From the NCBI GenBank assembly GCA_000002445.1, contig CM000207.1, positions 2,624,001 to 2,688,000 on the forward strand: a DNA stretch of 64,000 bases, given 5' to 3'. The position numbers were made by a program, and so were the translations under genes. Below the pieces are notes generated by a model, which ran no database searches, was not told the DNA's origin, and was given only the letters and a program-made list of their open reading frames with translations. Below are positions 8,957-39,450 of this stretch, in pieces. Position 1 is the stretch's first letter; each line of letters begins with the position of its first letter. The stretch comes from Trypanosoma brucei. Taxonomy: Eukaryota.

Positions 8957-10384
8957 TTACAATACTACCAAACTCATAAAAGAAGAAGCCATTCTCAGAC
9001 CCAATTTCTTATTGGCGAGAAAACTAGAATCCTTGTACTGTTTGCCTTCCCATTTGCAATACGGAGATTTACAGTCATCTTTGTTCTTTCCCTTTGCACT
9101 TATCTGAGGCAGTATTTGTCCCTCTTGTTTGAGTCTGTTACAGGGTCTTTGCATTTGCTTTTGTGGAATTAAATTTTCACTTTTTATCGCCCTCAGCTGC
9201 TCTTTCGTTGTAACTGCAGAAAGGCTTGTTGTTGCATCAATTTTATTCTGTGATTTGATTGCATACCTCTTGGGTTTCCTCTGGCTGGCATTTTGTTTGT
9301 TGAGCTACTGCGGTTGTAACCAGTTTTTCGGGCTTATTGCGTCAAAGAATTGATGTATCCTCTGTTTGACTCGCTTGTCGTGCCTGCCGCACGGCCACTA
9401 TTGCCTTGTTGGCTTTTAGTAGGGTGTCTTTTGATATCGTGAGCTCTGTCTGGTCCTTGCTCCGTCCGACTTCAGCCTCAGTAGTCGCTATGTTTTCGTA
9501 GTCCATCTTGTCGGTGGCTTCGCCCAATGTTATTACATTCTTTAGGGCCGCTATCGCTGGTGTCAGTGAAGCTGCTTTGGTGCTCGCCAGTAATTGTATT
9601 TGTGCTAATATGGTGTCGGTGTCGATGGTGCTGGTGGTTTTCCATGCTGTGTCGGTCGAATCTCTGCTAGTTATTTTCAGTAAGTCACAGACAAAAAAGT
9701 TCCACTGTTTCTTCCACCGCTTAAATCTATAAAGCCGTCGGTTGTGTCGAGCCGCGTTAGCTTACAGCCTTTGTCGGCATCGGCGCCTTTCATTGTTTCG
9801 GTTGCTGCCGCTTCTGTAAGTTCAGTAGTGTAGTCCGGTTCCGCGTTTTTCTGGTTGATGGGCCACTGCGTTGCAAGCTTACCGCTAACGGCGCACGCTC
9901 CCATGTGTTCAATTTTGGCCCGATCTGAGCCACTGTTGTCTGCGACCACGCAGTAGTTCGCGCTGCCGTTATGTGCCGAGAAAAAAAGGTTGACGGTTTC
10001 CATTATCGCGCCTGCCGCCTCTGCTGCCACGAGGCCCTTGTGGATCGTGGACTTTAATTTTGCTTTGGCTTCCGCTTGCAGTTTCTGCTGGCGCTCCCGG
10101 ACTAGCATTAGTAGGTCAATGCTTTCCGGAGGTTCCAGCATCTCTTTCTTTTTTATGCACTCCGTCATATCGTCCACCACACTTTTTGCCTTTTCGAGCG
10201 TTGAATCAACGCTCATCGCTATTGTCGCTGCGAATTCTCCATGAGCGCGCAGCTTAGTTGCCAGCGTGCACGCGTCGATGAAGCCTTTGGCAGCTAGAGC
10301 AGGCCTTACGGAGTGTACAGGACGAGCTACAACTGCGATCACAACGGCTACGCAAGCGGCCCGGAAGTTGTTGTTTAAGAACAT
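8957..10384 (-). pseudogene. VSG pseudogene, full length but with at least two frameshifts.
   Basis: ORF 9677-10384 begins with the signal peptide MFLNNNFRAACVAVVIAVVARPVHS followed by the N-terminal domain. ORF 8957-9154 ends …CKSPYCKWEGKQYKDSSFLANKKLGLRMASSFMSLVVL*, a canonical CTD and GPI signal. The 16-mer in reverse complement (gtgttaaaatatatca) sits at 8893-8908 in the 3'UTR. Confidence 0.85.
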
Positions 10385-13300
10385 TAAAACTCTTCTCTTT
10401 GTTTCGATTTACTACTTGTTGATGTTGTATATGAAGTTGTTTTTGGTAAAGTTGCAAAAAATCATCTGTAAGCGGTGTCAGCTATCGACTGTCTTCAATG
10501 TTGAAGTTAAGCTTGGGTGCGTTGTTGACGGACAAGTGATTGTCCTACCTGTGCTTTGTTTCCTTATTTTGCTTTGTGTGGTGGATAAGTTTCTGTGCTT
10601 TTTTTTCGGATTATGGCATTGAAGGGATAGAACCTCATAACACCAGAACCTTCGTTCTTGGGTCTGCATCTATTTTAACTTTCACCAGCCTATTTAGTAA
10701 GTGCTTCTCGATCTTACGGGGCTACAGTATGACGTTCAAGGATTTCTCATGCTTTTAAAAAAGACAAGTTCCTCAGTCACAGCGCTTTCATCCCTAACCT
10801 TCCTTCCTTCTTTTCTATTTTCTTTAACGGATTATCAGAAACCATACTCATTTACTGCTGTTGTTAATGTCTCTCCAGTGATTTTATCTTTGCTATTTTT
10901 CCGCACTTGTGAAAATACATTACAACTTGCAGCGGTGTATTAACGATACATCCCAAAAAACTGGCTTTCACTCTTATATCCCATCACCACAGGTTTATTA
11001 ATTACCATTTTCATTGGCATCACAGTTTTCTCCGATGGATGCACTCATTTTCAAGCCAAATGCGGACCATTTTTATTCTTCATGCATTTTAATTTTAAGA
11101 AAATCCCATGTCCTTGGGAAACAATGGTTTATATCGGCGTAGAGAGCTCAGTTTTATATTTTAAGCGTTTTATTTTTCTCTTTTCGTTTTGACATTCTGG
11201 GCGCTAATGAGAAGGTTTTGCTTCTCATTTTTCTAAACTCATTCCGTTTGGAACTTGGATTTTCGTATTTCTTCCATGTTTATTTTTGTGTTTCTACCGC
11301 TTTTTTAGTGCTTGTTACTCTCTTTTAAACGTATAAATAGATGAAAATTTAGGAAAAATAAATACTTATGTAAAATGGATGTAATTTTCTGGTGTTTGGC
11401 CGCTGGGTTGCATCTACTTAAGCTATTCTATGTCATCTCATTTATAATCTATTGATTCTTCGATTTGAGTTATATTTTCACACTTTCAGCTGACTTCAAA
11501 CTCGAAAATGTTGAAATGATTTGTTCTATCGGATAACTTGTTCAATTTACTTAAATGCAAGGCCCTATAAGCGTCAGTGCCTCTACACTATTTTTTGATG
11601 CCATAACAGTTTTATTCATCGCTTCACTTCGATGTTTTTGTGCTTTCTTTTGGTTTCTGTTGTTATCGAGACATCTACTTTGATGAGGTTGCTTTTAAAT
11701 TTATTGGAAGCACTTATTTTGTTTTTGTCTGCGACTTTAGTCGTTTTTATTTATTCTATTTTTTCTTGAGTTACAGCCAGTCGGCAAGCTGCTTAGATTC
11801 CGATAATTACAGTGTCATATGCGCATTTACTCTAGTGTACCACCATTGCACTTTAGAATTATATTCCCGTTGGTATCGTTTCGGCAGTGTACCGCTCTGC
11901 TTCTCCTTTAGCTTTGCGTTCTAGCCACATTTTGGTTGCTATGTCCATTGCAACTACTGCTTTTGAGAATGTGCCTTCCAGCTCTGTTTTGGCTTTTTAC
12001 TCCATTTCTCTGAGGTAATGTGGTGCCTCAAAAGCCTTCGTTGTTTTCGCTTTCCTGTTATGTATTGCGGTTGAGACCGCCTCAAGCAGGCTAACGAGCA
12101 GTGATACAAATACAGGGCTTGACATGATTTTTTTTATTCTTCTCTTTCCCTTTAGATTTCATGGTGGGTTGTGAGGGTTGAGGTGAGGTCTTTGGGCATT
12201 GTGTCTCCTTAGAAGCTCTTTATCTAAAGTTGTAGCGGAAAATAGGGGACGTTTTCTGGCACTTCTTTGCACTTTGTGTAGTGAATTTTTCTGTTCGTTG
12301 CTTCTATGGTTAGAGTGCTGTTTTAGATCTGCGAACCAGCATCGGTTTACTTCCGCTTCTCTTGAAGATATGTTTTGATAATTAGGGGGATTCTGGCCTC
12401 GCTATCTGTCTAACAGCCGACCTCTTCACCGCCTTTTCTTATTGATTTGGTTTCTCTTCGCAGTCTTATACCTTGTTGGCGTCACCTGATTTTTACATTC
12501 CCTCAGTAGTGAATAATGCTTGAGTTACAAGGGTTCCAGCGCTGCTGTTAATATGTGCTTTGCTTACTCTTCGCTTTCTTTTTTCTGTACCAATTTTTAT
12601 TTTCTTGTTACTTCTGGTATTTGAATTGCTTTCGGCATGAAATTTATTGCATGCATTGATACTACAATGTGATACACTCCCACTGTTCTTTATAATACTG
12701 CACATTTTTCTCCTACTTAAAATTCAGTTCTTATGGTTTATATTCTACTTTATATTCCGTTCATCTTTTTCCCTTACATGCTGATTCAGTAACAATGTAA
12801 GATTTCTGTTGCTCCTGGACCCGATTTACTTTTCCTTTTGTCATGAATTATATATGCCTGTATATCTTCTCTGTTACAGACATGGAAATTTGTGGCCAGA
12901 AAGTGTTTTTGTACTGCTTTTGCTTTATTAATCCACACTGTCAATAGCGGCTTCGTGACCTCTTTTATATAAATTACACGTTACTTGAAAGGTATTAATA
13001 TCTCCACAGCATCACAACATGTAATTGAAGAAGTGCAACCATTAATTTTCTCGACTTCATACAGTTCTTTCATAGGCTGATATATGTGTCATTTGAAGAA
13101 GTTTCCTCGTTTACACTTTTTCATTGCTCTCCTCAGTAATCCATTGGTTGTCTTAGTTTAAAAATTGATCGGGCGATAATATTATAGTATTTCGCCTAAA
13201 TGTTAGCAACAATAACCAAGTTTTTTGACGAAAAGAGTTTGACATCATTTCATACTTACTCAATCCTTTCCAGATATTTCTGCTTTTTTTCTTCCTTATT

Positions 13301-22002: not shown

Positions 22003-23436
22003 TTAGGCACATTTACTTACGTTGATTATGTTCACCACCTCTTCTTTTCCTAAATGAACAATCTTTTTGTCATCTGTTTTGTCAGCGAGACAAGCCTCCA
22101 TGATTTTGTGCCTTGCACACCCGATTGTAGTTGTTGCACCTCCTTCTTTTGCTGCTTGTTTGCCTTCCTCACTCAATGTGCACTTTTTCTTCTCATCTTT
22201 TGCTTCGGCGTTCCACTTGCATGTTTTTTGGCACTCTTTATCTGACTCTTTCTTGTTGCACTCTGTTTCTTTGTAGTCGATGCTTTGTTGTGTTGTTACT
22301 GGTTTGTCGGAGCTGCCTGGAGTGCTTTGTGACAGTGGTTGTTTTGGTAATTCCCGTTTGAACTCGGCTGCGAGCGCATCGTTTGCGATTTTTAGTTGCT
22401 CTGCTGCTGGTGTCGCCGTTTCTTTGTGGGCGTCGATTGTTTTCATTACGCTTAGGGCGTCAAGCAATTTGTCTCCCCACGGTATTGTTCTCACACCTTT
22501 GTGAGCTGTTGTGAATGGTGTCGAGTAATCTACACAAGCTGAGTTAGTTTTGTCGCAGCCGCTGTCACCATCGAGCTTTCCTAGAATGATTTTCATGTCG
22601 CTACTGCCGGTTTTCGCCGCCCCTAGCCTGGCTTGGAATGCCGCGAGGGCCGCTGCAAGTAGCGTGTCAGCTTCGTTTGGCTCAGGGTCAGAGCCGCATT
22701 CCTTAATAAATTTTGTGTTCGCCTCCGCCTTGAAATTGTTGTCGTTCATTGCTAGTGAACCTGAATCAGCTCCTGTGCATTCGTGTGCGCTTTGGCTGTT
22801 GCAGAGGCATGTGATGTCAAGTTGTAGGCTCGTCCCCGCATTTGCTGCGGTACAGACTGCCGTCTTTGATGTAGTGTCGCCCGTGATTTGGTCGCATTCA
22901 CCTGTTTGTTTGTTTGGTTGAAGCGGCGCTGTGCAAAGAGCGGCGTCGAACAGGTCTCTTAGCCGGTTAACGGCTGCTTTTCCATTTGATTGCGGCATTG
23001 CTGTCGTTGTGGCGCCGAGCTATGTCGCTTGAGCGGCCGTTTCGTTGACGTACCCTCTGACATAGTGTTTGAACGCGTTGTCGGTGGGCAGCTGTCGCGT
23101 TTTTGCCCAGTCCGTGTTAGAATTTTTTGTTGCCTCTTTTTGTTGCTCCCACAGTGGCCACTCTTTCTGCCAGTCTATTGTTCCGAGCGATGTGCCCTTT
23201 GCCTTCTTGAGAGCATCCCAGCCCGCGTCTTTTTCTGTTTTGCCAAACAAATTCCGCCACTCGTCTGCAGCTACTGACATATTATAATTCAGAATATCTG
23301 TTAGGTCAGTACGTAACTGAGGTGCCTCGTACGTTACTTTCCTGAGCGCCCTTACTGCTGTATATACACGGCAAAGTGCCAGAAAATCTGCTTGGTTGTC
23401 GCCGGCCGCTGCTGAAGCATGCCTGATAACTTCCAA
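22003..23436 (-). pseudogene. VSG pseudogene.
   Basis: ORF 22003-22998 (331 aa) includes the CTD …ECNKKESDKECQKTCKWNAEAKDEKKKCTLSEEGKQAAKEGGATTTIGC…. ORF 23020-23436 is an upstream N-terminal piece in another frame. There is no clean signal peptide and no intact GPI tail. Confidence 0.75.
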
Positions 23437-23699
23437 ACGACTGCTGCTATTTGTATGAGAAGAACCTTCATCGTCTTTATGACTACATTCGAAAATGGAA
23501 GATTATTTCTTGCCTTGTAAGTCAGTTTATTGAAATGACTGATGCTTTTCTTGCCATCTTTCACATGGTTATGTTGCTTCTGTCAGCAATTGTCATCCAT
23601 AATTCGGTCACAGTGGTGATGGTGGTGTGCGTTTGTTGCTTGTCTACAACTTCTTAGCTCTAAAAAGATCCCCTTCTTTAAATGTACCATCACAATCAG

Positions 23700-24560
23700 C
23701 CCATAATATATATCACACTTCTCTCCGTCTATTGCATAACTTAAAATTTCCCCCCAGATCCTTCAAATTAAAATCCCTTCTTTCTCCCTTCTTGAAGCAA
23801 GTAAGGTTGGATACGATCTTTTTAGAATTTGCCTCCCAGGTTAACTCATGTCCTAGAAAGTGAAGAAACGCAGGTTTTCTGAGCGAAGTTTCGTAAGGAA
23901 CTGAGAAAAACTGCTCTTTATAATCCAGACCTATCAGCCCTCCTTGCAAAACGAATCTACTGCTGACATTCTCTTCACGTTCCACACTTCACAACAACAA
24001 GGGAATATAAATGCTTTTTTGGACCACCATTCGTCAGCCACTGCAAGAACTTTATCGAAGGCGGCTTTAAACCTCTTAAATTCCCAAACTCGTGCTATTA
24101 AATTACCGCTCCAGAGGTATGGCTTCCCTGTGTCGTGAAATTTTAGTAGAGGCGGTAGGACTTTCTCTTCTTCTGTCTTGCTTGTCATCTCAAAAAACCA
24201 CCGACAACGTTCTTTATGTTCTTTGTAATCAGAATAAACTATCAAGTCCAACTGAGGTTCATAATACTCAGCTGTCGTCATGAATAGAATCGGAGAAATT
24301 TGTTTGTCTTTAACGACACCCTCCTCACTAAATTTATCTTCATTATCATCAGTATTTTGTATAAAATATTTACTGCACTCTCATACTTCTCTTTCCATCA
24401 GAAACAATAACATAAGATCCGTCAACAGTCATTACAATATTATCATCACTTACATTCTGTCTTTCCAAAAACTCCATAACCCATATAAGCCTTTTTACAT
24501 GACTATACAAACCTCCCATAGCAATTGTAATAATTTCAACATGAGCTCACTTAATCGTTA
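23700..24560 (-). other. Conserved co-transposed-region element with a degenerate Trp-rich ORF, copy 1.
   Basis: Minus-strand ORFs 23934-24281 (…LPPLLKFHDTGKPYLWSGNLIARVWEFKRFKAAFDKVLAVADEWW…) and 23713-23985. The nucleotide sequence matches 56900-57750 on the plus strand, for example gctatgggaggtttgtatagtcatgtaaaaag and the translated piece GDLIARVWAFRKVEY. Confidence 0.6.
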
Positions 24561-25139
24561 AGAGATATTGAGCTTAAGAACACTAAATATAATTACAGCA
24601 GTAGTAGTAACATTTTCAAGACATCTAATTTTAAGACTTAAATCACCTATAAACTTTGATATTGTTATATAGGAAACAGAGAAAATTGGAGAAGACTATA
24701 CAAAAAATTCGAAAAAAAGGAAAGATATCAGTTCCGCAACTGTAGTTTCTTTTCAAAGAAACTGTGTTCACATATACAAATAATGCCTTAGCATTGTTAT
24801 GATGCAGCTGGATGTGGTTACTTTTTAAGTGTATACAGATCATCTTTCGCACGAATCCATCTTTTTTCTTTTAGAAGTTAGCATCACTCATACATACTGT
24901 TTCGCGCTATGTTTATTCCGCTTTTCCTTGCATTCCACATAATCCACTCAGTTTGCTATAGAGATTGCAGTAACTACTTGCACACGAAGGTTAAGATATA
25001 CTAAGAATTTTATTAACTTTCTCCGATAACTAACCTGACCGTCCAGTTTCGTTAGAAGATACCTATAACAGTAGCTTTAAAAATAATTTATTACCATTGA
25101 ACCCTTCCACCGTTTTAAGTGCTTCTATTTCTTTCCACT

Positions 25140-25215
25140 ACAATTACTATCATTACTGCTCTCATTATAATATTAAAATAGTCACACTCAAAACATACTA
25201 TTGCTATCACTATAT
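25140..25215 (-). repeat. Degenerate 70-bp repeat, reverse-complement orientation.
   Basis: cattactgctctcattataatattaaaatagtcacactcaaaacatactattgctatcac. Confidence 0.6.
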
Positions 25216-25439
25216 GAATACCCTAATTAATATTCATGATGCAAAAATAACCAAATTAAAATGGCACACATTTTTCATATTCTGTAACATTATTTATTTA
25301 TACCAATAGGTCACTGTCATACCAAAATTTCATATTTTATAGTTTTTCAAAATTTTACTAATTACCATATATTTATGGAAAAGATTTTTAATATATCAAA
25401 TTTTAGAAAATTCTTTCGGGAAGTATAGTTTCATAGGTT

Positions 25440-26871
25440 TTCATAAAATTGAGGAAAGCTGCTTAGAATGCAGCCAAAACTAACGCAGCAAATACCTGAG
25501 GAACAGAACCTCTCAAGTTGCTGGAAACCGACTTTTCATCTTTCTTTTCAGTATCAACTTTGGGAAAGCATCTTTAACCTCAGATTTTTTCTCATCAAAA
25601 TCACAACCTTTTTCTTCTTTGCAGGGTTTCTGTGTTGTATGCTTTTTGCACTCGTCTACAGCTTTTGTTTCTTTCTTTTCTGTTTTTCCTTTCACTTCCT
25701 CGCTGCTGGTGTCGCATTTCGGTACTGCGGGTGGTGAAGTTCCCAAAGCCACAGCCAATGCAACGCCCAGATGGTTATCCTCTTCTAGTTTCTTCAAGTT
25801 TTCAGTTGTTGCTTTTTTCGACTCGTAGTAAGTTGCCGTTTGTTTTTCCGCGTCCTGCCAAACCTGTTTGTTGAAGGTATCTTGGTCGCCGCCGAAAATT
25901 TTGTTGATTTCGTCATCTACTTTTGATGTCAGTGTCCCAGTTATCTCTGTCTCGGCTGGCATTGCGAGTAGCAGTCTCTCTACAAGGTTGAAAAACTGGG
26001 GGTGCCCTGTGCAGCTTTCTCGCACATGGGCTTCTGGGATATTGGTGAGTGCTGAGACGGCGGCGGATATGACTGTATGGTTTTCGTCCAGTTTGTCTTT
26101 GTCCACTCCGGTTAGTTTGATAGTGCCGGCGATTGGAATCTTCGCTGTTGTCCAGCTTTGTGGGCCGCTTGTTGCGGGCGGTGCTGTGTTGTGGTCTATG
26201 TTTAGCGTTACAGTGAAGATGTCGGTGGCGCTTGTGCCGCTGCACGCCACACCGCTTTTCGTGCACACGTGGCTTAATTTGAATCCGAGTTGTGGTTTCC
26301 TTAGCCCTTGTCCTTTTGCTAATGTTTCCACCGATATCGGCGGTGTGTCTTCAGCTGTTTTCGTTGTACACCCGGCTTCGACGTTTGCCGTCAGGCTTGA
26401 CGTTGTGTACACCGCGTCGCCGTAATGGGTGTTGGCGCTGGCGCCCGGTGTCACCGTGTACGTTTTTCCGCTCTGCGGTGCCCTCACTTCAGCGTCGTAC
26501 CCGCTGTACAGCGTGGTTACGAGTTTCAGATAGTGTCGGACAATCGGGCTGTTTTGGCTTAATAGTCCCGTCCAGCCGACTGCGCTATCCTGTGCTATGC
26601 CCGCTAATATCGCAAATTTGGCCTTTTGTATTCCGGAGGTCACTGCCGCGGCAACAGTTAGCTTTTCTGCTGCTTATGCCGACTCCGTCACTCTGCCTGC
26701 TGCCGTGTCTAGCAAGCCGCTTAGGTACTTTATCAGTTCCTGTGCTCGGTGCCTGCAGTTGCAGGGGTTGGTGCAATCCGTGCGTTTTTCTGCCGGCTTT
26801 GTTGCCACCGCAGCTTGGCCTAAGGTTGCAGCGCACGCAACAAGAATAATGCTTGTCAACAAATAGCACAT
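25440..26871 (-). pseudogene. VSG (B-type N-terminal domain) pseudogene with a frameshift between the signal peptide and the body, and no in-frame GPI tail.
   Basis: ORF 26674-26871 has the signal peptide MCYLLTSIILVACAATLGQAAVA. ORF 25513-26643 (376 aa) carries the B-type motifs …QVWQDAEKQTATYYESK… and the CTD cysteines …KAVDECKKHTTQKPCKEEKGCDFDEKK…. Confidence 0.8.
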
Positions 26872-29124
26872 GTGGTTCTTTAAATGTATCCCTTGATGAT
26901 TACGTCCACAGTGGTGTCTGATCTTTAACTAGACTGGAAGCCGAGTTAGTATGCAGTAATTCACCTAGATATTTGTGTATTTCTAAGGTTATTTTAGCGT
27001 AAAATTTTGGTTTTTATCGACTGGTTAATTTCTTGTCGCAGATTAGCTTCCATTTTTAGCTACTTCTTTTTGATGCTGCTTGCAGTGAATATTGGATAAT
27101 TCTGTCTGTTTTTTTGTAGTTTTATATCGTCAGCATACTCTGAGGCTTCGGATTTTTTCTCAATGGACCTGCTGGTTTGGGGCTAGTCAGTTTGATGCTC
27201 GCCACCTTGTAGTTCACTGGCGGCTGCGTCACTGTTTATGCTATATCGTTTGTGTTTAAGCTCTGTGCTCTTTATTCACTGTTATTTAAGCAACCTAGGA
27301 AGTTTTTTGGTTCCGACGTATGTTGAATTTCCTGCCATGACTGATTTTGTCGTTTGCAGTCTCACCGTGAGCGTCTGTTTCAAAATGGTCCCCTCTCCTC
27401 TGAGAAGAAACTTTTCCCAAAATTACGTCTTTTTGCCTTCATTTTTAGCTTTTTCTTTGCCTACATTTTTTGTAAGATAATTTTGTAACTAGCGTCAGTT
27501 TTTGTGGCACATAGAGTTGTCTGATTGGACCGCCAGGTTAACAGGTTGCTTTTTGTTTTTTCAGTTGCCGCCGGTTTTTCGTTGTCCGTCGTTGTTTGAG
27601 CACTTCCATTGATAGTTTTGTGCGAAGTGAGTTTTTCCGCATGTCCTGCCGCATCTCTTATCGTTTGTGATCACTTTTTCTGAGGAAGGTGCCGTTTTGA
27701 CGGTATTTTGTGTCTTGTAAGCTGCCAGTGTGTTGTATTCTCCGTCTTGGTTTGTTGCTAGTCGCGTCGTCTTTTCCAGCTTAAAGAGACGTACAGCGTT
27801 GGATTTTGTCGCTGCGGCTTCTCTTTAAGTTGGCAACGGGGAAGCGGAGTCTAGTAGCTTGTTCGCGTGCCGGATTTCCGTACAAAAGTCACTCGCAGCT
27901 GTTTCTTCCGTTGACCTTCCTACATCGCTGATGGTTAATAACGGAATAAAAATTATCGCTAATTGCGGATACCGTTGGTGGAACCTTTTTTGTAGTTTGT
28001 TATTTGCTAGTGTTCTTCTTCGTCTGTCGATCCTGATGATTTCTTTCCTACTTTCTTACTTTTTATGGGGCTTATTTCTGAATACTGGTTGTCGTTTTTA
28101 CACAACAGCTGAATGGTGCGCCCACGGGCCTATCGTCTTGAATGTTTAGTAGTACCAAAGCAGGGCTATATTATGATCTTCTTCGGCTGCTGATGTGTAG
28201 ATATGAGATGAATTGTGTTTCAGGATATTGGGTTTGCCGTTCAGCTTCTGATTGTGGCATGTTAATCTGTCGTATTACCGTATTGATTAATATTAGTTCT
28301 GCTAGCAGCTAACTAGACGCTGGTGACCCCTCTTCGATGTTTATCTCCTGCTTGATACTCTTGAGCCGCCGTCATTTGCGGCGTCTTTTAGGCCTAAGCT
28401 TGCGATAATCTTTTTCCGAGAAAGTCTTTGTGGTCTGGCTCGAGCCTCACACACAAGTCTTTAGGTTGTGCTTTGTGTCTTCGGTATATTGAATAGCAAC
28501 TTCCACAGGACAATATTACTATGTTTGTAAGAGTTTTTTTACAGTGATATCCTTTTTTTCTAAAATTACATTTATGCTCCTTCCTTATATGCTCTTCTAG
28601 CCGCCCCACCCGTAGAAAACACACATTAAATCTATGAAGTGACACCCTCCATCAGATAGCGGTTCATATCACGATTTGCAATCATAATAAAAACTACAGG
28701 GGTACACAATGTGCAATGCTGCATATATCAATTTTTGAGTAAAATAAGGATCATTATTGTCTCCTGCCCATCTTATTAATAATTTATTATTTTCCTTTCT
28801 TTCTATTTTGTCGTTTCATTCATATTTTTTATCTTCTTTTTCTCTCCAGCTCCTTTTTTTCGAAACATATAGCTAACTCGCTTTGTATGTACACTAGATT
28901 TTGTCTTTACATTGTTATTCACTCAATCATCTTGTCGTATATGATAATACCCATTGTCATGTTTTTGACAAATGGTATACTTTATATTCATATCTTCCTC
29001 TCTGTCTTTCTGCATCCCTGTTTATAATATTCCTTGTGCTCTCCCTTTTTCAATCACTGATTTTCTTTTAACCCTCATCATAATTTTAAATGTCTCTACT
29101 TTTGCTGTTCATTCGTATTTTCCA

Positions 29125-29215
29125 CCACTATTATCATGAAATTAGTATATACACAATTATGATACTCTCATATCATCATGACAATTATTATTATTATTAT
29201 TTTAACCTTAACTAC
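29125..29215 (-). repeat. VSG 70-bp repeat, reverse-complement orientation.
   Basis: attagtatatacacaattatgatactctcatatcatcatgacaattattattattattatttta. Confidence 0.7.
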
Positions 29216-29479
29216 TATCCATAAAATGAACAATACAAACTAACTTAGAATACCAATCATTTTTCACACCGTATTACGCTACTTTTCTACACATTCACCG
29301 CTATAATGCACGGTTTACTAAACTTTTATACCTTAAAATAACTTTGAATTTCCACTAATTTGTACATTTTCATGAAAAACTGTAAAAATGAATCAAATAT
29401 AGCAATTTTATAAAATGTTCTCTAAATCACAAATTACATAATTTTCATAAAATTTGTCAAAACATCCTTTATGATATTT

Positions 29480-30871
29480 AATCATAGAAATAAGTCGAGA
29501 AAAAGAGGAGCCTTAACGACAAAAGAACTGTTACCTGTGGTGTTAGTGTTTTTTTCTTCCTTCTCCCTTTACTTTTATCGTATCTTTAAGTTCGCACTTT
29601 CCGTCTTTGTGTTCGCAATCTTTGTCCTCTGTGCATTTAGTTGCTTCAGTGTTTTCCTTGCATTTTTCTGTTGATGACTTGATTTGTGTCTCGCTGCTTT
29701 TTCCCTGACCTTGTGGGTAGTTCTGTGTCCTCTGAAATTTTGAAAAGCCGGTTGCTACAGCTGCTGCTGCTTGAGTGTCTCCGTTCAGCTGTGATATGTC
29801 GACAGTCTGGTCGTCTTTTCCACTGTAGTACGTCGCTTTTGTTTTTTCTATTGCTTGCCATATCTTGGTTTGAAACTCTGTCCCATCTTCTTTGCCATAG
29901 TATTTCCGGAGCGCTGCGTCGAGTGCCGCTTTGCTGGTTCCGGTTAGATCTGATACCGGCTTGTCGCTGACAGCTGTTCGGTACACCAGTGTATTGAAGT
30001 CACTTGAGGCCGTGTATGTTTCTAGGGCTGTGAGGTCTCTGTGGCTCAGTAACGCCGCAGCTGCCTGAAATGCTGCGCTGTGCTTGGCTTGTAGTTCTGA
30101 CGTTGTCAAATGTGACAGCTTGATGTTAGTTATGCCTATTTTTTGGTGGATTTTCCCGGTTATTTGTCCGCCCGCATGTGTGCTGGTTGTGTGCTTGAAG
30201 TGAGCGCCGATCGTTACTTTGTCGCTTGCTACGTTGTTGCAGGCGCCACTGCCCCCTTGGTTCGTGCACTTTAGTGTTGTTTCCATTGTCAGTTCAGTTA
30301 CCTCGATTCTCTGATCGAAAGTGAAGACTAAGTCCTCGATCGGTGTTTTGTCATCGTCTTCCGTGTTCCCGCAGCTGCTTCGCGTTTTCTTGTTGTGGTT
30401 GTTAGCTGCAAACGTGGCACTTACTAGCGCCGAAACTGCAGCTTGCGTTATAACAGCAACGTCGTACGCGGCAGCTACATAATTGAGTTGGTCGTATAGT
30501 ACAGCTACTTCCTTTAGGCGTTGCAGGTGATCTTTAACTTTGGGGAGTCGTGTTTCGACCGTCCTTGCGTACTGTGCTGCTTTCGTGACTGCTGTCGCTA
30601 GCAGGGGTGTTAATGCTCTTTTCAGCTCTTTGTTTCCGTTTGCAATTCCCAGTAAGAGTTTTTCGATTGTGGCGGCGTCCTTTTGTAAATTCTTTTGTGC
30701 CGCTTCAGCTGCAGCTCTCAGCCTGTCTGCGAGTTGAGCTATTCGTGCAAGGCACTTGCACGGACAGCCGCACTGCTCTCGGGCAGCTGATTGTTTTACT
30801 GCGCTTGCCGTTGGTGCTCCGAGCAGCCACACCGTGTACAGTATGATTGGTGTCGGTTTCGGTGCGTTCAT
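29480..30871 (-). CDS. Near-intact VSG (B-type), 442-aa ORF with signal peptide. The GPI-signal tail is in the +1 frame.
   Basis: MNAPKPTPIILYTVWLLGAPTASA…TKIWQAIEKTKATYYSGK…CKENTEATKCTEDKDCEHKDGKCELKDTIKVKGEGRKKH*. Translating the minus strand of 29480-29545 in another frame gives TTGNSSFVVKAPLFLDLFL, so there is one frameshift near the C-terminus. Confidence 0.85.
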
Positions 30872-32595: not shown

Positions 32596-32765
32596 TACAC
32601 ACACACACACAGAACATTTTTCTCTTATTATTATTATTATTATTATTACTATTATTATTACTATTATTATTATTCTCATCCTCATTACTGCTCTTATTAT
32701 AATATTAGTATAGTCACACTCACAACATACTACTATTACTACTATTTCTAATACTCTCATACCCT
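32596..32765 (-). repeat. 70-bp repeats with a long (AAT)n tract, reverse-complement orientation. They form the outer end of the left inverted-repeat copy.
   Basis: …ttattattattattattactattattattactattattattattctcatcctcattactgctcttattataatattagtatagtcacactcacaacatactactatt…. Confidence 0.8.
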
Positions 32766-33901
32766 AACTAATATCCGTAAAATCGACAAAAACTAAAAAA
32801 AAAGAATGTTGCTTATTAGTACACGCATTTCATACACTAACATCATACTTTACACCTATAGACTACTATTATATTAAAATTTTGTATTTTTAATATCTTT
32901 ATCATTTACACATCTTCATAAATTTTAAAATTGAGCAAAAAATTCACTAGAAGTTTCAAAATACCACACAACTCATAAAGACAATTATAATCAGAAATAA
33001 TTATTATTTACAAGGAACCTGTAGTCTTTGAAAGCATTATTTTCCTATTTTCAATTGCTAGTGCAATCTCTCTGTTGGTTATATTTGCATTTTGAAGAAG
33101 TTTGCGTCCCTTCAGTTCCTGTTTGTATTGCTGTTTTCTATATTGCTTTCGTGTTAGATTTGCAGTTTTTTCCATCCTTCTCACTTTTTTAAAATTTTCT
33201 TCGTGCCTTCGTGGGAGTTTCCCCCCACTGGCGCGACCATCAGCCATCACCGTAGAGCCCTGAGATGCTATCGGTCTGGCGACTGTGGCAGAGTCTCCCT
33301 TTTTTATTCAGCCTAACACACTCTCTATAATTTTTGTTGTAGCTCCGCAGTTGAACGGAATACAGCAGATGGGGCGAGAAGCCACCCAACCCGGACTCTC
33401 CCAAAGATGTCAATTAGCAACCCTTTTGTTTTTATTTTTGTTATTCGTTTATTATTCTCTCCCCCTCTTTCTGTTTTTGTTGCTTGTTGACTGCATACCC
33501 CCTCTGTCTCTGAGGGTGTCTGGACTATTCCTGCGTCCGGTGCTTTTCCTGCTAGCTCCACACTCGGCAATAAGGGGGAAAGTTGCAGAAAGGAAAGTGG
33601 GTTGTATAACTGTTACATTAGGGGAGGACTTCACATGCGGCCGGTTCCGTTCAACCGCAATGAGAAATTGCGCCAGCCTTTTAGAGAATCATACATCCTG
33701 CACACACACACCTTATACAGCTAACCTGACACGTAGTTCCTTCAAACCGGGACAGCTCATCAGGTGCAGCGACGTTTCTTCGCAGTCGCCGCGTTGTCTG
33801 GTAACAGCGCGCTCTACCTTCATACCGTGCATCTTATTTTGATGGAGGGTGAGGCCAGTTTTGCTAGCACACTGCCTTCAGCATGTCGGGCACACCAACA
33901 T
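32690..33901. repeat. Left copy of the ~1.2-kb inverted repeat: 70-bp repeat, VSG 3'-end fragment with 3'UTR, and the first ~650 bp of the ingi.
   Basis: This span is the reverse complement of 38403-39615. Plus-strand ORF 33285-33842 (…LFLFLLLVDCIPPLSLRVSGLFLRPVLFLLAPHSAIRGKVAERKVGCITVTLGEDF…) is nearly identical to minus-strand ORF 38469-38873. ORFs 33008-33250(-) and 39061-39303(+) are the identical 80 aa. The match ends at about 33901 on the left and 38403 on the right. Confidence 0.9.
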
Positions 33902-36103
33902 GGATGTGTTTGTATGCGGGGAATCAGTGGCACACAATTTTGTGCTTTTGCTGCATTTAAGCTCGACTCCCTCACCTTTGTGGAAAGCCTTACAGTGTCG
34001 GATGAGAGAATCCCTGCAACTGAGCACTTTTTGACACACACCACACTGCACCTCTCCTTTCCCAGTGGCGTCAACGTTTTCCTCACGGGCACGCTTACGA
34101 GGGAATTGCACCACCACTACGGTACCGTCCTCCATCACTATGCTCTTATGTTTGAATTTCTTGTGTAGTGACCGGGAAGAGCGTGTACCGAAGCTCGTCT
34201 CGCACAGGTCACATTGAAACGGCAGCTTCCGTGTATCCTGAGAGACTGGCGCTGCTGGGGCTCTACCATCTCCTTGCAATGAGTCCTCGTTCTCTCGCCC
34301 CCTTTTCACGCGGCAACTACCGCTACCTATGCCATGTATTGTTCTAAGGTGGTGTAGTAGTGGGCCTGGTACTGCGAATTTGGAGGCACAGATGGTACAA
34401 TGAAGCACCTGCGGTCTCATCGGGACTCGTGTGCTCGATGGTAGAGGAACGATCGCCACCACTGGAGGGGGCTCCGGGGGGATATCCACTGCGGGTGTTG
34501 CATCGCCGTATTTGATCCTCCGGAGGGCATCAGCTCGCACAAAGCCATGTTTGTTTACCATGTGCGTTACAGTACTCGAGCGGCATTGGTATGTGGCATC
34601 ACATTCCGTACATTTGGTCGGTTCGGAGGTTCTCTGAAGAGTGCGTGTCGCAACAGTTGGGACTGTTTGTATTGTTGGCCCTATCGCTGCATGTTGTGGG
34701 TTGCACCATCGGCACTGTGGAGGCACACTCGGGTTGATCTTTCGCAACATCCATCCATAGTGTCTTGAAGACCCAACCCGAAAGCGTGCCAGTGCTGTTT
34801 CTTCTTCCCTCGTCAGTTCTTCTTTATGTTTTGTTGGAAAGTGGTTGCCCGTGATACCAAACCTATGAGTGTTCTCATGGACTTCTTCCGACCTAAGCAC
34901 TCGCTTCGCATAAGCAATGATGTCGGGGATCCATGTATCTCGCAACTGTGGTAAATCAGCGGCCTTTTTGGCCATTTCATCACAAACCTCATTCCGTTTC
35001 ACGCCACAATGGCCAAACACAAATTGCAGTCGGATACGTATCTTCCTTCTCTGAACTTGAAGCAGAAGCCTCCATAGTCGTCTTAGAATTGGGTCCGTTA
35101 CGGCTAGGGTGCCTGTCTGCAGTGCTGTTAACATTGACAGCGAGTCAGAGAAGATGGACAACCTGCTAGGTGTGCTTCTGTATGCCGGAAGCCATTTCAG
35201 CAGCCGTTGCAGTTCTATCTCTAATGCTACGCATTCCGCTCTGTAACTGCATGAGAGTTCCCCTGCTCCGGTTTTGGGTGCACAAATCAGCGTGTTGTTT
35301 CTATAGAGCAGGGCAGCTGCTCCGGACTTCTCACCGAGGGACACGGATCCATCAGTCCACAATTCGTAGTGCTCTCGCCGCGGTGGCTCCTTCCCCCTCC
35401 GTGCAAAATGTCGTTCAATCCACTTTTCGGAAGCCTCCCTTTTGACATCGTCAGGGTCATCAGCGCACACAGGCTTTATCTGCGTGTGAAATAGCGGTCG
35501 GCAGCTGTGGCGGAGCGTCGATGTCTCCAGTGGGTGCTCGCGTGGCTCAATGTGGAGAAGAGGGTACGACAGCATGATGCGGGAATGTTGGGCTCTGACT
35601 GGGTGTTTGCTGTGGTATACTTCTTCAGCACTGCGCCGCAAACATCCGCCTCGTGACTCACACATCAGCATGAATTTCATGCTGTGCACAAGAGTGGCCG
35701 TCTTGAGTGGCAGGAGGTTTGCTTCCAGCAGAGAGTCCTCTTTGCGCGTCCCATGCGGTATGCCGGCTATGATGCGACTGGCTTTGTGTTGTGCTGCTGC
35801 AAGGAGGTCGCGACTTCGTTCCGAAGCGTCCCAGTACCATACCTCAATGCCATACATGGTGTGTGCCTGTACGAGTGCTAGATAAAAAGCTCTCAGCACT
35901 TGTCGTCTTGGCCCCCATGTAGAAGCTGAGATGGCTGCTATCTGCAGTAGTCGGAAGTCCATCTTGCGTCTCGTTTCGGCCGCATGTGTTGCCATCCCCT
36001 GCAGACGCTGGAATGTTACTCCGAGAAGCTTCGGTGTCCTGTCAGCTCCTATTCTTTCGCCGTCCAGTTGCAATGTAAGGGGATGGCGCTCTGTACACCC
36101 CAA
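33878..36103 (-). pseudogene. ingi ORF, C-terminal segment: RT C-terminus, RNaseH-like region and C2H2 zinc fingers.
   Basis: Overlaps the upstream segment by about 60 nt in a different frame, so a frameshift lies near 36042-36103. Three C2H2 fingers are present. The stop codon at 33878-80 lies inside the inverted-repeat junction. Confidence 0.85.
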
Positions 36104-38462
36104 GAGTGTGCACTTTGTTTTTCGCTACGTTGACAGACATAAAGTACTCTTTTGACCACTGTAACACAACGTTTAGGCCGCATTGCAGTGTGTGGTTGAT
36201 GACATCCCTCTCTGTGTGCCTCGCAAGTAGCGTTAGGTCGTCTGCAAAGAATCCGTGCTGCAGTAACGGCACTTCTGCAAGGCGTTGGCTCAACGAGTTC
36301 ATGACAATAATGAACATGATTGGGCCAAGGACAGTTCCTTGTGGCACTCCTCGCTCAAATGTTCTGCTTCTGGAAAGCTTCTCCTTGAATCTCACTCTGC
36401 CAGTTCGGTTACTCAGAAATGATACGCACCACTTCACAATGTAGGGTGATACCTTCATTCTGTGCATTTCCCTCGCAATTTTGTCGTGGTCTACTGTATC
36501 GAATGCCTTCGCGTAGTCAACGAATACAGCACCCGTACGAGATTGGTGCGTGGGACGGCAGAGGGCAGCGCGGACGTGCAGGAGTTGTTCGAGTGTTGAG
36601 CATCCGGGGCGAAAGCCTGATTGCTGCGGCGTCAGCTGGGACTCAACAGTGTCTCTATGCCTCGCGGCAATTATGCGCTCCATGACTTTGCAGAGACAGC
36701 TCGTGAGCGTCACAGGCCTGTAAGAATCGAGGTCCTCCGCCTTTTTTCCGGCCTTCAGGATGGGGATGATAACACCAATCTTCCATGCAGGCAGCACGAC
36801 TCCCGTTCGTAGGCTCTCATTGAATAGCCTTAGAACAACATTCAGCGCTGTTCTGCCGAGATATTGCAGTGCCTCGTTGTATAAGCAATCAGGTCCGGCT
36901 GCGGATCCACTCGGAAGTAGTTTGATCGATCTCCGTAGTTCAGCCATCGTGATGGGACTGAACTCACTCGCTATCGTCTTTATGGGTGCTGGTGGGTGTG
37001 AGTCGGGGTGCCTTCTTGCACGGGACGAGTACAGTTTACTGAACCTCTCAGCTTGACGGTAGTCCGTGATGGCCGCGTTATCAACAAGTACCGCCAGTGT
37101 GGTTAGTGGTCGTGGCGCATATACCTTCTTGACAATGTGCCAACTGCAGCGGTCTGACACCGCAAGTCTGGAGCATAGCGTTCTCCATCTCTTCTTTGTG
37201 GTACGGTCCAGGATCTGCTTACGCGTGGCTACCAACATTTCCCTTCGGTGGGAGGGTCCGCATCCAGCGATCTCTTCATCGAGTTTAGTGAGCGTTGGTG
37301 TCCAATGTGGTGGCGTTGCTCTGCAGCCACGGGGGACGAACATCTTCGTCGCAATGCGGATGGCGGAGCTCAATTTCTGTTCCAGGGTGTTGACGTTCTT
37401 CTCTCTACCAATTTTCCTGCAGAGCTCGTCAACCTTGAGACGGAAATTCCTCCAGTTAGCTTTTAGCCATACGTACATGGGCATTCGAGGCCGCGTGCAA
37501 CTCAGTGCATCTGTGTCGTCTCCAACGATAACGTCGAAAAATATGTTATGGTGATCGCTATCGGGAGAATACAGCGATGTCCACGTGTACACTGTGCAAT
37601 TCCTTGACAGTGTCACATCAAGGGTAGATTCCCCGTGGTGGCGCGCGTACCTGGTGCACTCACCAGTGTTGCAGACCAGAAACTGGTTGTCAATGCACCA
37701 CTGTGTGAGGGTTTCACCCTTGGTATTTGGTGGGCTCGTGCGATCCCATGCCAACGCGTGTGCGTTAGCGTCTGCACCGATGAGCTGGGCACCGTCAGTT
37801 GTCAGAAGCGTATCTAGGTCAGTTGCCGTGAAGGTGTGTTTTGGTGGGATGTATGCCGACGTGACAGTCAGCGCCGTTCCACGTGCAAGGTGAATTGTTG
37901 CATGCACTTGTTCAATGCGACCAACAACGGCCATACCGGTCTCGACTAGTAAGTCCTCCCTCACTAGTATTGATACACCACCTCCTTTGCAGTTACGAGC
38001 TATTCCGTGATGTTGGTAGCCAGCAACGCTAAAGCAAGCCTCCTCTCCAAGCGTCATCCTTGTCTCGCTCAACAGACAAAAGGCGATCCGCTCATCAACA
38101 AGGGTTTTGTGGAGTGCTAATCTCTTTCCTTGAGATAGCCCGGCGCAGTTCCACTGCATCCCGCGCAACGACGGGCCGGGATTCTCTTCCACATCACCGG
38201 ACAGCAGCATCTTAGTGCGGATGATACTGCTGATGGCACGCTTTGACGTGCCCAGGGACCGACAAATGAAAAACGGTGTCCCAGCAAGACGCTGCTGATC
38301 CCTGTGCTGTATCATCGGGGAAAGCCAAGAGGCAGCAGTGTTTCCCATGAAAGGAACGCTGCTAGCTCTTGGCTTCCCCCGATGATACGGGGTACTGGAT
38401 CCTGGCACCACGTTGAGGTGCCTGACATGCGGAAGGCAGTGTGCTAGCAAAACTGGCCTCAC
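36042..38462 (-). pseudogene. ingi ORF, middle segment: 2A-like peptide, AP endonuclease and reverse transcriptase.
   Basis: …TKMLLSGDVEENPGPSLRGMQWNC… is a 2A-like D(V/I)ExNPGP motif encoded at about 38173-38199. Endonuclease and RT motifs are as listed for the element. Confidence 0.9.
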
Positions 38463-38468
38463 CCTCCA

Positions 38469-38873
38469 TCAAAATAAGATGCACGGTATGAAGGTAGAGC
38501 GCGCTGTTACCAGACAACGCGGCGACTGCGAAGAAACGTCGCTGCACCTGATGAGCTGTCCCGGTTTGAAGGAACTACGTGTCAGGTTAGCTGTATAAGG
38601 TGTGTGTGTGCAGGATGTATGATTCTCTAAAAGGCTGGCGCAATTTCTCATTGCGGTTGAACGGAACCGGCCGCATGTGAAGTCCTCCCCTAATGTAACA
38701 GTTATACAACCCACTTTCCTTTCTGCAACTTTCCCCCTTATTGCCGAGTGTGGAGCTAGCAGGAAAAGCACCGGACGCAGGAATAGTCCAGACACCCTCA
38801 GAGACAGAGAGGGTATGCAGTCAACAAGCAACAGGAACAGAAAGAGGGGGAGAGAATAATAAACGAATAACAA
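38469..38873 (-). pseudogene. ingi ORF, N-terminal segment, separated from the next segment by an in-frame TGA.
   Basis: This 134-aa ORF is in the same frame as ORF 36042-38462. A single TGA at 38469-38471 intervenes. Confidence 0.8.
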
Positions 38874-39060
38874 AAATCAAAACAAAAGGATTGCTAATTG
38901 ACATCTTTGGGAGAGTCCGGGTTGGGTGGCTTCTCGCCCCATCTGCTGTATTCCGTTCAACTGCGGAGCTACAACAAAAATTATAGAGAGTGTGTTAGGC
39001 TGAATAAAAAAGGGAGACTCTGCCACAGTCGCCAGACCGATAGCATCTCAGGGCTCTACG

Positions 39061-39450
39061 GTGATGGCTGATGGTCGCGCCAGTGGGGGGAAACTCCCAC
39101 GAAGGCACGAAGAAAATTTTAAAAAAGTGAGAAGGATGGAAAAAACTGCAAATCTAACACGAAAGCAATATAGAAAACAGCAATACAAACAGGAACTGAA
39201 GGGACGCAAACTTCTTCAAAATGCAAATATAACCAACAGAGAGATTGCACTAGCAATTGAAAATAGGAAAATAATGCTTTCAAAGACTACAGGTTCCTTG
39301 TAAATAATAATTATTTCTGATTATAATTGTCTTTATGAGTTGTGTGGTATTTTGAAACTTCTAGTGAATTTTTTGCTCAATTTTAAAATTTATGAAGATG
39401 TGTAAATGATAAAGATATTAAAAATACAAAATTTTAATATAATAGTAGTC
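39061..39450 (+). pseudogene. VSG 3'-terminal fragment (last ~20 codons and 3'UTR) abutting the ingi 5' end. A mirror copy lies at 32860-33250 on the minus strand.
   Basis: ggaaaataatgctttcaaagactacaggttccttgtaaataataa closely resembles the end of the VSG at 45757-45804 (ggaaaaatattgcttgcaaagattacggttttcttgtaaataataa, i.e. …CKDYGFLVNNK). It is followed by a VSG-3'UTR-like block ttgctcaattttaaaatttatgaag (compare ctcaattttatgaaaattatgaaac at 63107). The 80-aa ORF upstream has no cysteines, so only the extreme 3' end is VSG-derived. Confidence 0.6.

What the first reader, a model, noticed from the sequence alone, without database searches (positions are those of the whole stretch)
23700..24560. 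Conserved ~0.9-kb element with a Trp-rich degenerate ORF in the co-transposed region of two cassettes on opposite arms.
The sequence between the 70-bp repeat and the VSG is usually considered non-coding and poorly conserved. Here 23700-24560 on the minus strand and 56900-57750 on the plus strand share extended nucleotide identity. Both encode remnants of the same non-VSG-like protein, rich in Trp, Phe and Lys with no Ala/Thr bias: …LPPLLKFHDTGKPYLWSGNLIARVWEFKRFKAAFDKVLAVADEWWSKKAFIFP… against …GDLIARVWAFRKVEYTYGELLKGNG…. Both copies carry stops and frameshifts. I cannot assign it to a known ESAG or RHS family from memory. It may be a relic of an expression-site-associated gene that travelled with VSGs, or an unannotated conserved co-transposed-region gene family.
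Basis: seen in the sequence. Interest (0 to 1): 0.5.

Follow-up and report, generated by a model that had tools for sequence, protein, structure and literature searches.

The report
Two dead ESAG3 genes upstream of VSGs

Summary
The segment 24307-24543 (minus strand) and 57089-57325 (plus strand) are 91% identical over 237 bp. Weaker homology of about 56-59% covers the rest of both regions between the 70-bp repeat and the VSG.

The "unassignable" protein is ESAG3. An exhaustive phmmer search with the longest open piece of copy A hit T. brucei ESAG3 at E=3.3e-41. Every other hit was an ESAG3-like protein from a Trypanosoma species. tblastn with ESAG3 covers residues 63-368 in copy A and 35-367 in copy B (1-367 with a frameshift-aware alignment).

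Both copies are dead. Copy A has about 5-7 frameshifts, 3 stops and a deletion of about 110 nt. Copy B has 7 frameshifts, 6 stops and an 87-nt deletion.

An ESAG3 pseudogene 3' of the 70-bp repeat is already described for Lister 427 expression sites BES7 and BES15. ESAG pseudogenes are reported as common in subtelomeric VSG arrays. A T. b. gambiense locus shows the same order: 70-bp repeat, ESAG3 pseudogene, VSG.

The better-conserved core encodes the N-terminal part of the glycosyltransferase (GT-A) fold. A and B share two frameshifts there, and synonymous divergence is low (0.25 against 0.77 downstream). That points to more recent shared ancestry or gene conversion of that segment.

Verdict: a known pseudogene family, of low interest.

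The parts
25143..25212 (-). 70-bp-repeat remnant that marks the upstream edge of cassette A
   Evidence: Matches the window's own 75-bp repeat consensus at 25143-25168. 25150-25212 is 87% identical to the 70-bp repeat region at 32682-32741.
24765..25099 (-). Spacer between the 70-bp repeat and the ESAG3 pseudogene in cassette A. It is probably old ESAG3 5' flank.
   Evidence: 59% identical to 56492-56804 in cassette B (E=2e-10). About 59% identical to the equivalent spacer in the T. b. gambiense locus L001 (E=2e-20).
23644..24634 (-). ESAG3 pseudogene, copy A. Residues about 60-368 are confidently aligned at 24576-23647, followed by the native TAG stop. A signal-peptide remnant at about 24620-24560 is assigned only through its homology to copy B.
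   Evidence: phmmer of 24380-23937 hits ESAG3 at E=3.3e-41, 53% identity. tblastn with ESAG3 covers residues 63-368 at 24564-23647, E=1e-56. A family HMM built without window sequences gives E=8.7e-35. The frameshift-aware alignment gives 5 frameshifts in the confident part (24396, 24370, 24020, 23754, 23702), stops at 24576, 24549 and 23991, and D113 changed to Y. About 110 nt (roughly residues 26-62) are missing relative to copy B.
24307..24543 (-). High-identity core of copy A (ESAG3 residues about 68-149, N-terminal part of the GT-A fold)
   Evidence: 91% identical to 57089-57325 and 81% to the gambiense copy. It contains the two frameshifts shared with copy B. There is no Rfam hit and the RNA fold z-score is 0.12.
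22003..23557 (-). VSG (B-type) pseudogene directly downstream of copy A, about 87 nt after the ESAG3 stop
   Evidence: Pfam VSG_B scores E=3e-20 with a VSG C-terminal domain on ORF 22003-22998. VSG_B scores E=1.6e-16 on the N-terminal fragment. The frames are broken.
56140..56177 (+). 70-bp-repeat remnant that marks the upstream edge of cassette B
   Evidence: 89% match to the 70-bp repeat consensus.
56492..56804 (+). Spacer between the 70-bp repeat and the ESAG3 pseudogene in cassette B
   Evidence: Homologous to 25099-24765 and to the L001 spacer.
56887..57898 (+). ESAG3 pseudogene, copy B, covering residues 1-367 and the native TGA stop
   Evidence: tblastn with ESAG3 covers residues 35-367 at 56983-57892, E=2.5e-72. 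The frameshift-aware alignment runs from residue 1 at 56887. It gives 7 frameshifts (57037, 57236, 57262, 57510, 57725, 57769, 57831), 6 stops (57149, 57384, 57521, 57560, 57572, 57701) and a gap of 29 residues in the alignment (87 nt absent relative to copy A in the nucleotide alignment, roughly residues 150-178). Fragments match the family HMM at E from 9e-16 to 5e-7.
57089..57325 (+). High-identity core of copy B
   Evidence: 91% identical to copy A and 87% to the gambiense copy.
57950..59700 (+). Heavily degenerate VSG (B-type) pseudogene downstream of copy B. The bounds are approximate.
   Evidence: Pfam VSG_B scores E=1e-9 on the fragment translated from about 58840-59150. The next 70-bp repeat lies at 59783-59841.

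Best explanation
Both elements are non-functional relics of ESAG3. ESAG3 belongs to the trypanosome ESAG3/GRESAG3 family of GT-A glycosyltransferases. A 2026 preprint reports ESAG3 to be the VSG O-glucosyltransferase.

Each relic, with its old 5' flank, fills the co-transposed region between a 70-bp repeat and a B-type VSG pseudogene. The module '70-bp repeat, ESAG3, VSG' is old and has been copied between subtelomeric sites. I infer that the ESAG3 part lost function and now only travels passively with the VSG.

Most of the divergence between the copies built up while the genes still coded for protein. After that, each copy collected frameshifts, stops and deletions.

The roughly 240-bp core is better preserved for two reasons. 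First, it encodes the slowest-evolving N-terminal part of the enzyme fold. Second, the cores of A and B share a more recent ancestor that was already dead, most likely through a gene-conversion patch, which is usual in these arrays.

Shown here: the identity, the lesions, the position and the mosaic divergence. Inferred: the conversion event and the lack of any present function.
For: Identity. phmmer against 1.84 billion representative proteins gave 16 hits. The best is a 368-aa protein at E=3.3e-41 and 53% identity. Its cluster is named ESAG3 in Lister 427, TREU927 and T. b. gambiense records. All but two of the other 15 hits carry ESAG, ESAG3-like or ESAG-like names from T. brucei, T. congolense, T. 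cruzi, T. theileri, T. grayi, T. rangeli or T. conorhini. The two exceptions are one unnamed Logan sequence and one eukprot sequence. tblastn with ESAG3 gives E=1e-56 for copy A and E=2.5e-72 for copy B, and finds nothing else in the window. An HMM built only from distant family members matches fragments of both copies at E from 8.7e-35 to 5e-7.

Pseudogene state. Frameshifts, stops and deletions are mapped.

Coding legacy. Downstream of the core, pS is 0.70-0.77 and pN 0.36-0.37 in all three pairs. Codon-position differences run third > first > second, for example 74/65/98 for A-B (p=0.002 for 23955-23800).

Mosaic structure. For A-B, the core has pS 0.25 and pN 0.11, against 0.77 and 0.37 downstream. 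A and B share a +2-nt and a -1-nt indel at ESAG3 residues 118 and 127. The gambiense copy lacks both.

Recurrence. T. b. gambiense DAL972 locus L001 has 70-bp repeats (8477-8617), an ESAG3 relic (9501-10595) and then a VSG-like pseudogene from 10797. The spacer upstream of the relic is also homologous in A, B and L001.

Literature. 'ESAG3 psi 3' of 70-bp repeat' is listed for BES7 and BES15 (PMC2567434). [quoted passage not shown] ESAG3 is reported as a GT-A O-glucosyltransferase with D110/D113, G215-G216, E244/Q245 and H297 as key residues (bioRxiv 10.64898/2026.01.27.701950). This agrees with my profile hit to the LH3 glycosyltransferase domain, E=3.8e-4.
Against: No T. brucei genome could be searched. 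I could not count copies genome-wide or see how this locus is annotated.

The gene-conversion explanation for the core rests on three sequences. The core is also the most conserved part when each relic is compared with functional ESAG3: 62-83% amino-acid identity for residues 50-178 against 48-64% for residues 179-368. Part of the contrast may therefore be a legacy of protein-level constraint rather than conversion.

The core also has a dN/dS of about 0.4 between A and B. The difference counts by codon position are 7/9/17. My own hand chi-square against equal thirds gives p of about 0.08, which is not a tool result. This is not clearly neutral.

The shared TGA at W254 (23991 and 57560) could mean that the whole gene, not only the core, was already dead in the common ancestor. 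That would make the uneven decay harder to explain by conversion alone.
Confidence: 0.93

Rival explanations
1. The roughly 240-bp core (up to about 440 bp when the gambiense copy is included) is kept similar by selection on the DNA itself. One possibility is that it serves as an upstream homology block. It would let these cassettes recombine with the several ESAG3 copies present in every bloodstream expression site. The relic would then still have a role in VSG switching.
For: The core is 81-90% identical among three copies from two subspecies, while the rest is 55-59%. All three are pseudogenes, so a protein-level function cannot currently be maintaining it. Hertz-Fowler et al. note that recombination breakpoints in expression sites coincide with ESAG3 loci (PMC2567434). 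Recombination between ESAGs during switching has been observed (PMC12137147).
Against: Only 2 of about 15 cassettes in the window carry the relic. The pattern is equally well explained by gene conversion together with an older protein-level constraint on the GT-A core. Nothing here shows use as a recombination boundary. No RNA family matches and there is no unusual RNA fold.
Confidence: 0.08
2. These are functional GRESAG3 genes, and the frameshifts are errors of sequencing or assembly.
For: Some frameshifts lie in A-rich runs, for example GGAAAGAG at 24396 and 57236. About 50 intact GRESAG3 genes are said to exist in subtelomeric and internal regions.
Against: Copy A has 3 in-frame stops and copy B has 6, all made by base substitutions. 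There is an 87-nt deletion in B and a deletion of about 110 nt in A. D113 of the metal-binding motif is Y in A. Two indels are identical in two separate copies.
Confidence: 0.01
3. The element is a new gene family specific to the co-transposed region and unrelated to any known ESAG.
For: There were no Pfam hits. The word-indexed protein search also found nothing.
Against: Exhaustive HMMER finds ESAG3 at E=3.3e-41, and all named hits are ESAG3-like. One search was a false negative of the word index, because the same tool found only the query itself when given ESAG3.
Confidence: 0.005

Closest known systems
ESAG3 pseudogene 3' of the 70-bp repeats in T. brucei Lister 427 BES7 (VSG 427-3) and BES15 (Hertz-Fowler et al. 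2008, PMC2567434)
   Same: The gene family is the same, the pseudogene state is the same, and so is the position between the 70-bp repeat and the VSG.
   Different: Those copies lie in telomeric expression sites. The two here lie in a silent subtelomeric array, upstream of VSG pseudogenes. I could not compare the DNA sequences.
Functional expression-site ESAG3 (368 aa; CAQ57304 and others), reported as a Mn2+-dependent GT-A VSG O-glucosyltransferase (bioRxiv 10.64898/2026.01.27.701950)
   Same: Homologous over essentially the whole length. Amino-acid identity is 62-83% for residues 50-178 and 48-64% for residues 179-368. The native stop codon position is kept.
   Different: The window copies are riddled with frameshifts, stops and deletions. 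Copy A has lost D113 and the E244/Q245 pair. They cannot encode the enzyme.
ESAG3 relic in T. b. gambiense DAL972, FN554968.1 (locus L001). Part of it is annotated as 'hypothetical protein, unlikely' CBH11491.
   Same: The order is the same: 70-bp repeats, homologous spacer, ESAG3 relic, VSG-like pseudogene. The core is 81-87% identical to A and B.
   Different: It is much less decayed, with 2 frameshifts and 2 stops. It lacks the two indels shared by A and B.
Chromosome-internal GRESAG3 / ESAG3-like genes (for example XP_823172, XP_823173, XP_951520)
   Same: They belong to the same superfamily and were detected with the same query at E from 1e-9 to 3e-5.
   Different: Identity is only 24-28%. 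They are intact genes that are not linked to a VSG or to 70-bp repeats.

Membership tests
ESAG3 / GRESAG3 (GT-A glycosyltransferase family of Trypanosoma) | Significant sequence homology to ESAG3 over most of its length | tested here: met
   phmmer gives E=3.3e-41. tblastn covers residues 63-368 in A (E=1e-56) and 35-367 in B (E=2.5e-72). The frameshift-aware alignment reaches residue 1 in B. An independent family HMM gives E=8.7e-35.
ESAG3 / GRESAG3 (GT-A glycosyltransferase family of Trypanosoma) | Intact ORF of about 368 aa with an N-terminal signal peptide (a functional member) | tested here: not met
   Copy A has at least 5 frameshifts, 3 stops and a deletion of about 110 nt. Copy B has 7 frameshifts, 6 stops and an 87-nt deletion. 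The longest open pieces are 148 aa and 56 aa. They belong to the family only as pseudogenes.
ESAG3 / GRESAG3 (GT-A glycosyltransferase family of Trypanosoma) | Catalytic residues D110/D113, G215-G216, E244/Q245 and H297 (as named in the 2026 preprint) | tested here: inconclusive
   In A, D110 and H297 are kept, D113 is Y, G216 is N, E244 is lost in a frameshift and Q245 is K. In B, D110, D113, E244, Q245 and H297 are kept and one Gly of the loop is deleted. This has no bearing on function because both reading frames are broken.
ESAG3 / GRESAG3 (GT-A glycosyltransferase family of Trypanosoma) | UDP-glucose:VSG O-glucosyltransferase activity | not testable with these tools
   This needs biochemistry. 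No product is expected from these loci.
VSG cassette co-transposed region | Lies between a 70-bp repeat and the start of a VSG, on the same strand as the VSG | tested here: met
   In A the order is 70-bp repeat 25143-25212, relic 24634-23644, VSG_B from 23557. In B it is 70-bp repeat 56140-56177, relic 56887-57898, VSG_B from about 57950.
VSG (A- or B-type) fragment | Match to the Pfam VSG domains | tested here: not met
   Neither joined translation has a Pfam hit at E<=0.1, whereas the neighbouring VSGs score E from 1e-9 to 1e-85.
ingi / DIRE / RHS retroelement-related sequence | Similarity to the ingi ORF or to reverse transcriptase, endonuclease or RNase H domains | tested here: not met
   There are no Pfam hits. 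The only match to the window's own ingi (33878-38462) has E=0.64.

The most novel reading that the evidence does not exclude
The 5' third of array-borne ESAG3 relics, the part that once encoded the N-terminal GT-A fold, may be kept at 81-91% identity across copies and subspecies while the rest decays to 55-59%. The reason would be that it serves as an upstream homology block. It would let '70-bp repeat, ESAG3 pseudogene, VSG' cassettes recombine with the multiple ESAG3 copies in bloodstream expression sites. That would give these VSGs a second 5' entry point for gene conversion and so affect their activation probability.
Probability: 0.08. Interest if true: 0.45.

Novelty: already known. Interest (0 to 1): 0.12.

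Why it matters
It matters little beyond correct annotation. The finding shows that the co-transposed region of these two cassettes is not anonymous non-coding DNA. It is a decayed ESAG3 gene with its old flank, and it fits the published picture of ESAG pseudogenes scattered through VSG arrays.

The only mildly interesting residue is the uneven decay: the core is at 81-91% and the rest at 55-59%. This is a small, testable example of patchy gene conversion or retained homology in trypanosome subtelomeres. It gains some context from the recent report that ESAG3 is the enzyme that O-glucosylates VSGs.

Tried and rejected
1. Pfam on the joined translations gave nothing. ESAG3 has no Pfam family of its own. 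The only sign is a sub-threshold GT_PLOD hit on intact ESAG3.
2. The search for homologous proteins with the joined 303-aa translation gave nothing. Given ESAG3 itself, the same tool found only the query. The word index therefore misses this family, and one search was a false negative.
I used the 148-aa open piece instead.
4. Exact look-ups of three window VSGs, of the 115-aa relic ORF and of ESAG3 itself found no public contig. The strain and its annotation stay unknown.
5. Non-coding RNA was rejected. Rfam gave no hit at E<=1 and the core fold z-score is 0.12.
6. Duplication of the whole cassette including the VSG was checked. The two downstream VSGs are both B-type but share only short C-terminal similarity. 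Duplication of the VSG part is therefore not demonstrable.
7. A link to VSG3, whose expression site carries an ESAG3 pseudogene, was checked. The VSG downstream of copy A matches only a VSG C-terminal domain in the PDB, not VSG3.
8. ingi, DIRE and RHS origins were rejected.
9. A search for further relics in the window, by tblastn and by a six-frame HMM search, found none beyond A and B.

Full report
CONTEXT. The window is a Trypanosoma brucei-type subtelomeric VSG array. ORFs on both arms match the Pfam VSG domains at E down to 1e-85. A non-LTR retroelement with endonuclease, reverse transcriptase and RNase H domains (ingi-like) occupies 33878-38462. The genes on its two sides point away from it. 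I found 70-bp-repeat remnants at eight places on the minus arm and seven on the plus arm, so the window holds about 15 cassettes.

blastn of each region against the whole window finds exactly one partner. 24543-24307 (minus) against 57089-57325 (plus) is 91% identical over 237 bp, E=4e-93. With sensitive settings the homology continues at about 59% on both sides: 24214-23638 against 57333-57906 (E=9e-21) and 25099-24765 against 56492-56804 (E=2e-10). The homologous unit therefore spans nearly the whole interval between the 70-bp repeat and the VSG in both cassettes, and only about 240 bp are highly similar. The joined translations align at E=8e-65. Copy A lies between the 70-bp remnant at 25143-25212 and a B-type VSG pseudogene at 23557-22003. 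Copy B lies between the remnant at 56140-56177 and a degenerate B-type VSG at about 57950-59700.

WHAT IT IS. Pfam gave nothing, and so did the word-indexed protein search. The exhaustive phmmer search used the longest open piece of copy A (148 aa, 24380-23937). It gave 16 hits. The best was a 368-aa protein at E=3.3e-41 and 53% identity. Its 90% cluster is named ESAG3 (expression site-associated gene 3) in records from Lister 427 expression sites, TREU927 and T. b. gambiense. All but two of the other 15 hits are ESAG, ESAG3-like or ESAG-like proteins of T. brucei, T. congolense, T. cruzi, T. theileri, T. grayi, T. rangeli and T. conorhini. The two exceptions are one unnamed Logan sequence and one eukprot sequence.

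tblastn with ESAG3 against the window covers residues 63-368 in copy A (24564-23647, E=1e-56) and residues 35-367 in copy B (56983-57892, E=2.5e-72). It finds nothing else. An HMM built only from distant family members, with no window sequence in it, matches fragments of both copies at E from 8.7e-35 to 5e-7. It finds no third relic.

ANATOMY. I wrote a frameshift-aware protein-to-DNA alignment to map the lesions.
- Copy B runs from ESAG3 residue 1 (56887) to residue 367 and the native stop (57896-57898). It has 7 frameshifts and 6 in-frame stops. It lacks 87 nt relative to copy A, seen as a 29-residue gap at roughly residues 150-178.
- Copy A is confidently aligned from about residue 60 (24576) to residue 368 (23647), followed by TAG. 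It has 5 frameshifts in that part and 3 stops.
- Upstream of that, A keeps a stretch (24620-24560) that aligns with the signal-peptide-coding part of B. It lacks the next 110 nt or so.
- Of the catalytic residues named in the 2026 preprint, A has lost D113 (now Y), G216 (now N) and the E244/Q245 pair. B keeps most of them.
- Neither copy can encode the protein.

EVOLUTIONARY READING. Downstream of the core, synonymous sites are saturated (pS 0.70-0.77) while pN is 0.36-0.37. This holds in all pairs among A, B and a T. b. gambiense copy. Differences are ordered third > first > second codon position (independent nucleotide-alignment check, p=0.002 for one segment). These sequences therefore diverged mostly as protein-coding genes and died later.

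The core behaves differently. For A-B, pS is 0.25 and pN 0.11. A and B share a +2-nt and a -1-nt indel at ESAG3 residues 118 and 127, and the gambiense copy lacks both. The A and B cores therefore descend from one sequence that was already broken, and they separated much more recently than the 3' parts did. A gene-conversion patch is the simplest explanation.

Two caveats apply. First, the same region is also the best conserved when each relic is compared with functional ESAG3: 62-83% against 48-64% amino-acid identity. It is also 81-87% identical to the gambiense copy at the nucleotide level, against 55-59% downstream. It encodes the N-terminal half of the GT-A fold, including the DXXD motif. 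Older protein-level constraint therefore contributes to the contrast. Second, A and B also share a TGA at W254 (23991 and 57560), which may be chance or may point to an older shared death. No RNA family matches the region, and the core does not fold better than shuffled sequence (z=0.12).

THE SAME MODULE ELSEWHERE. One hit (P0002, annotated 'hypothetical protein, unlikely') led to T. b. gambiense DAL972 FN554968.1 (locus L001). That locus has 70-bp repeats at 8477-8617 and an ESAG3 relic at 9501-10595 with 2 frameshifts and 2 stops, about 61% identical to ESAG3. From 10797 there is an ORF with a VSG-like signal peptide, followed by broken VSG-like frames. The spacer between the 70-bp repeat and the relic is also homologous among A, B and L001 at 59-64%. 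The module '70-bp repeat, spacer, ESAG3, VSG' is therefore old and recurrent.

COMPARISON WITH WHAT IS KNOWN. Hertz-Fowler et al. 2008 list 'ESAG3 psi 3' of 70-bp repeat' for BES7 and two ESAG3 pseudogenes for BES15. They state that BESs 2, 4, 7 and 15 carry extra sequence (an ingi element, a VSG pseudogene or an ESAG3 pseudogene) between the 70-bp repeats and the telomere (PMC2567434). Jensen et al. [quoted passage not shown] PMC4766357 says the same. A 2026 preprint reports ESAG3 as a Mn2+-dependent GT-A O-glucosyltransferase acting on VSG3. It gives LH3/PLOD3 as the closest structure and mentions about 50 intact GRESAG3 genes. My family profile independently hits the LH3 glycosyltransferase domain in the PDB at E=3.8e-4. 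The element is thus a member, as a pseudogene, of a named and annotated family, in a configuration already described.

VERDICT. The 'ESAG relic' reading is right and the 'unannotated family' reading is wrong.
- Novelty: already known.
- Interest: low.
- Still open: why the 5' third is so much better preserved than the rest. I attribute this mainly to patchy gene conversion together with old constraint on the catalytic fold. A present-day role as recombination homology is possible but unsupported; I put it at about 8%.

Noticed in passing
window 32646-33903 and 38408-39657: A 1258-bp inverted repeat at 97.5% identity flanks the ingi-like retroelement (ORFs 33878-36103 and 36042-38462) exactly at the point where the two VSG arms diverge. 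Each arm ends in the first 70-bp repeat of its side. The strand switch therefore looks like a recent inverted duplication with the retroelement at its centre.
   Followed up: no
window 2483-3138, 28931-29553, 25155-25453 and 63013-63645: A second family of weakly conserved (64-67%) flanks next to 70-bp repeats is shared by several cassettes on both arms. Conserved non-VSG flanks are thus common here. I did not identify what they are.
   Followed up: no
proteins P0001 and alignment A4 (ESAG3 family): The ESAG3 family profile matches the glycosyltransferase domain of human LH3/PLOD3 (PDB 6wfv_A, E=3.8e-4), and D104, D110, G111 and D113 are invariant. Pfam has no ESAG3 family, only a sub-threshold GT_PLOD hit. 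A 2026 preprint reports the same fold and an O-glucosyltransferase activity.
   Followed up: yes
window 22003-23557 and about 57950-59700: Both VSG pseudogenes that follow an ESAG3 relic are B-type. VSG 427-3 follows the ESAG3 pseudogene in Lister 427 BES7 and is the reported ESAG3 substrate; from my own knowledge it is also B-type. No sequence link between the VSG downstream of copy A and VSG3 was found in the PDB search. This may be coincidence.
   Followed up: partly
L001 9989-10564 (T. b. gambiense DAL972 CBH11491): A protein annotated 'hypothetical protein, unlikely' is the open 3' part of an ESAG3 pseudogene. T. congolense CCD11578 carries the same annotation and also matches the ESAG3 query (E=1.3e-8); its sequence begins at about ESAG3 residue 63. 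Both look mis-annotated.
   Followed up: partly
tool behaviour: The word-indexed protein search did not return ESAG3 for a query that shares a run of 13 identical residues with it. Given ESAG3 itself, it returned only the query. The exhaustive search found the family at once. Negative results from the indexed search should not be trusted for trypanosome proteins.
   Followed up: yes
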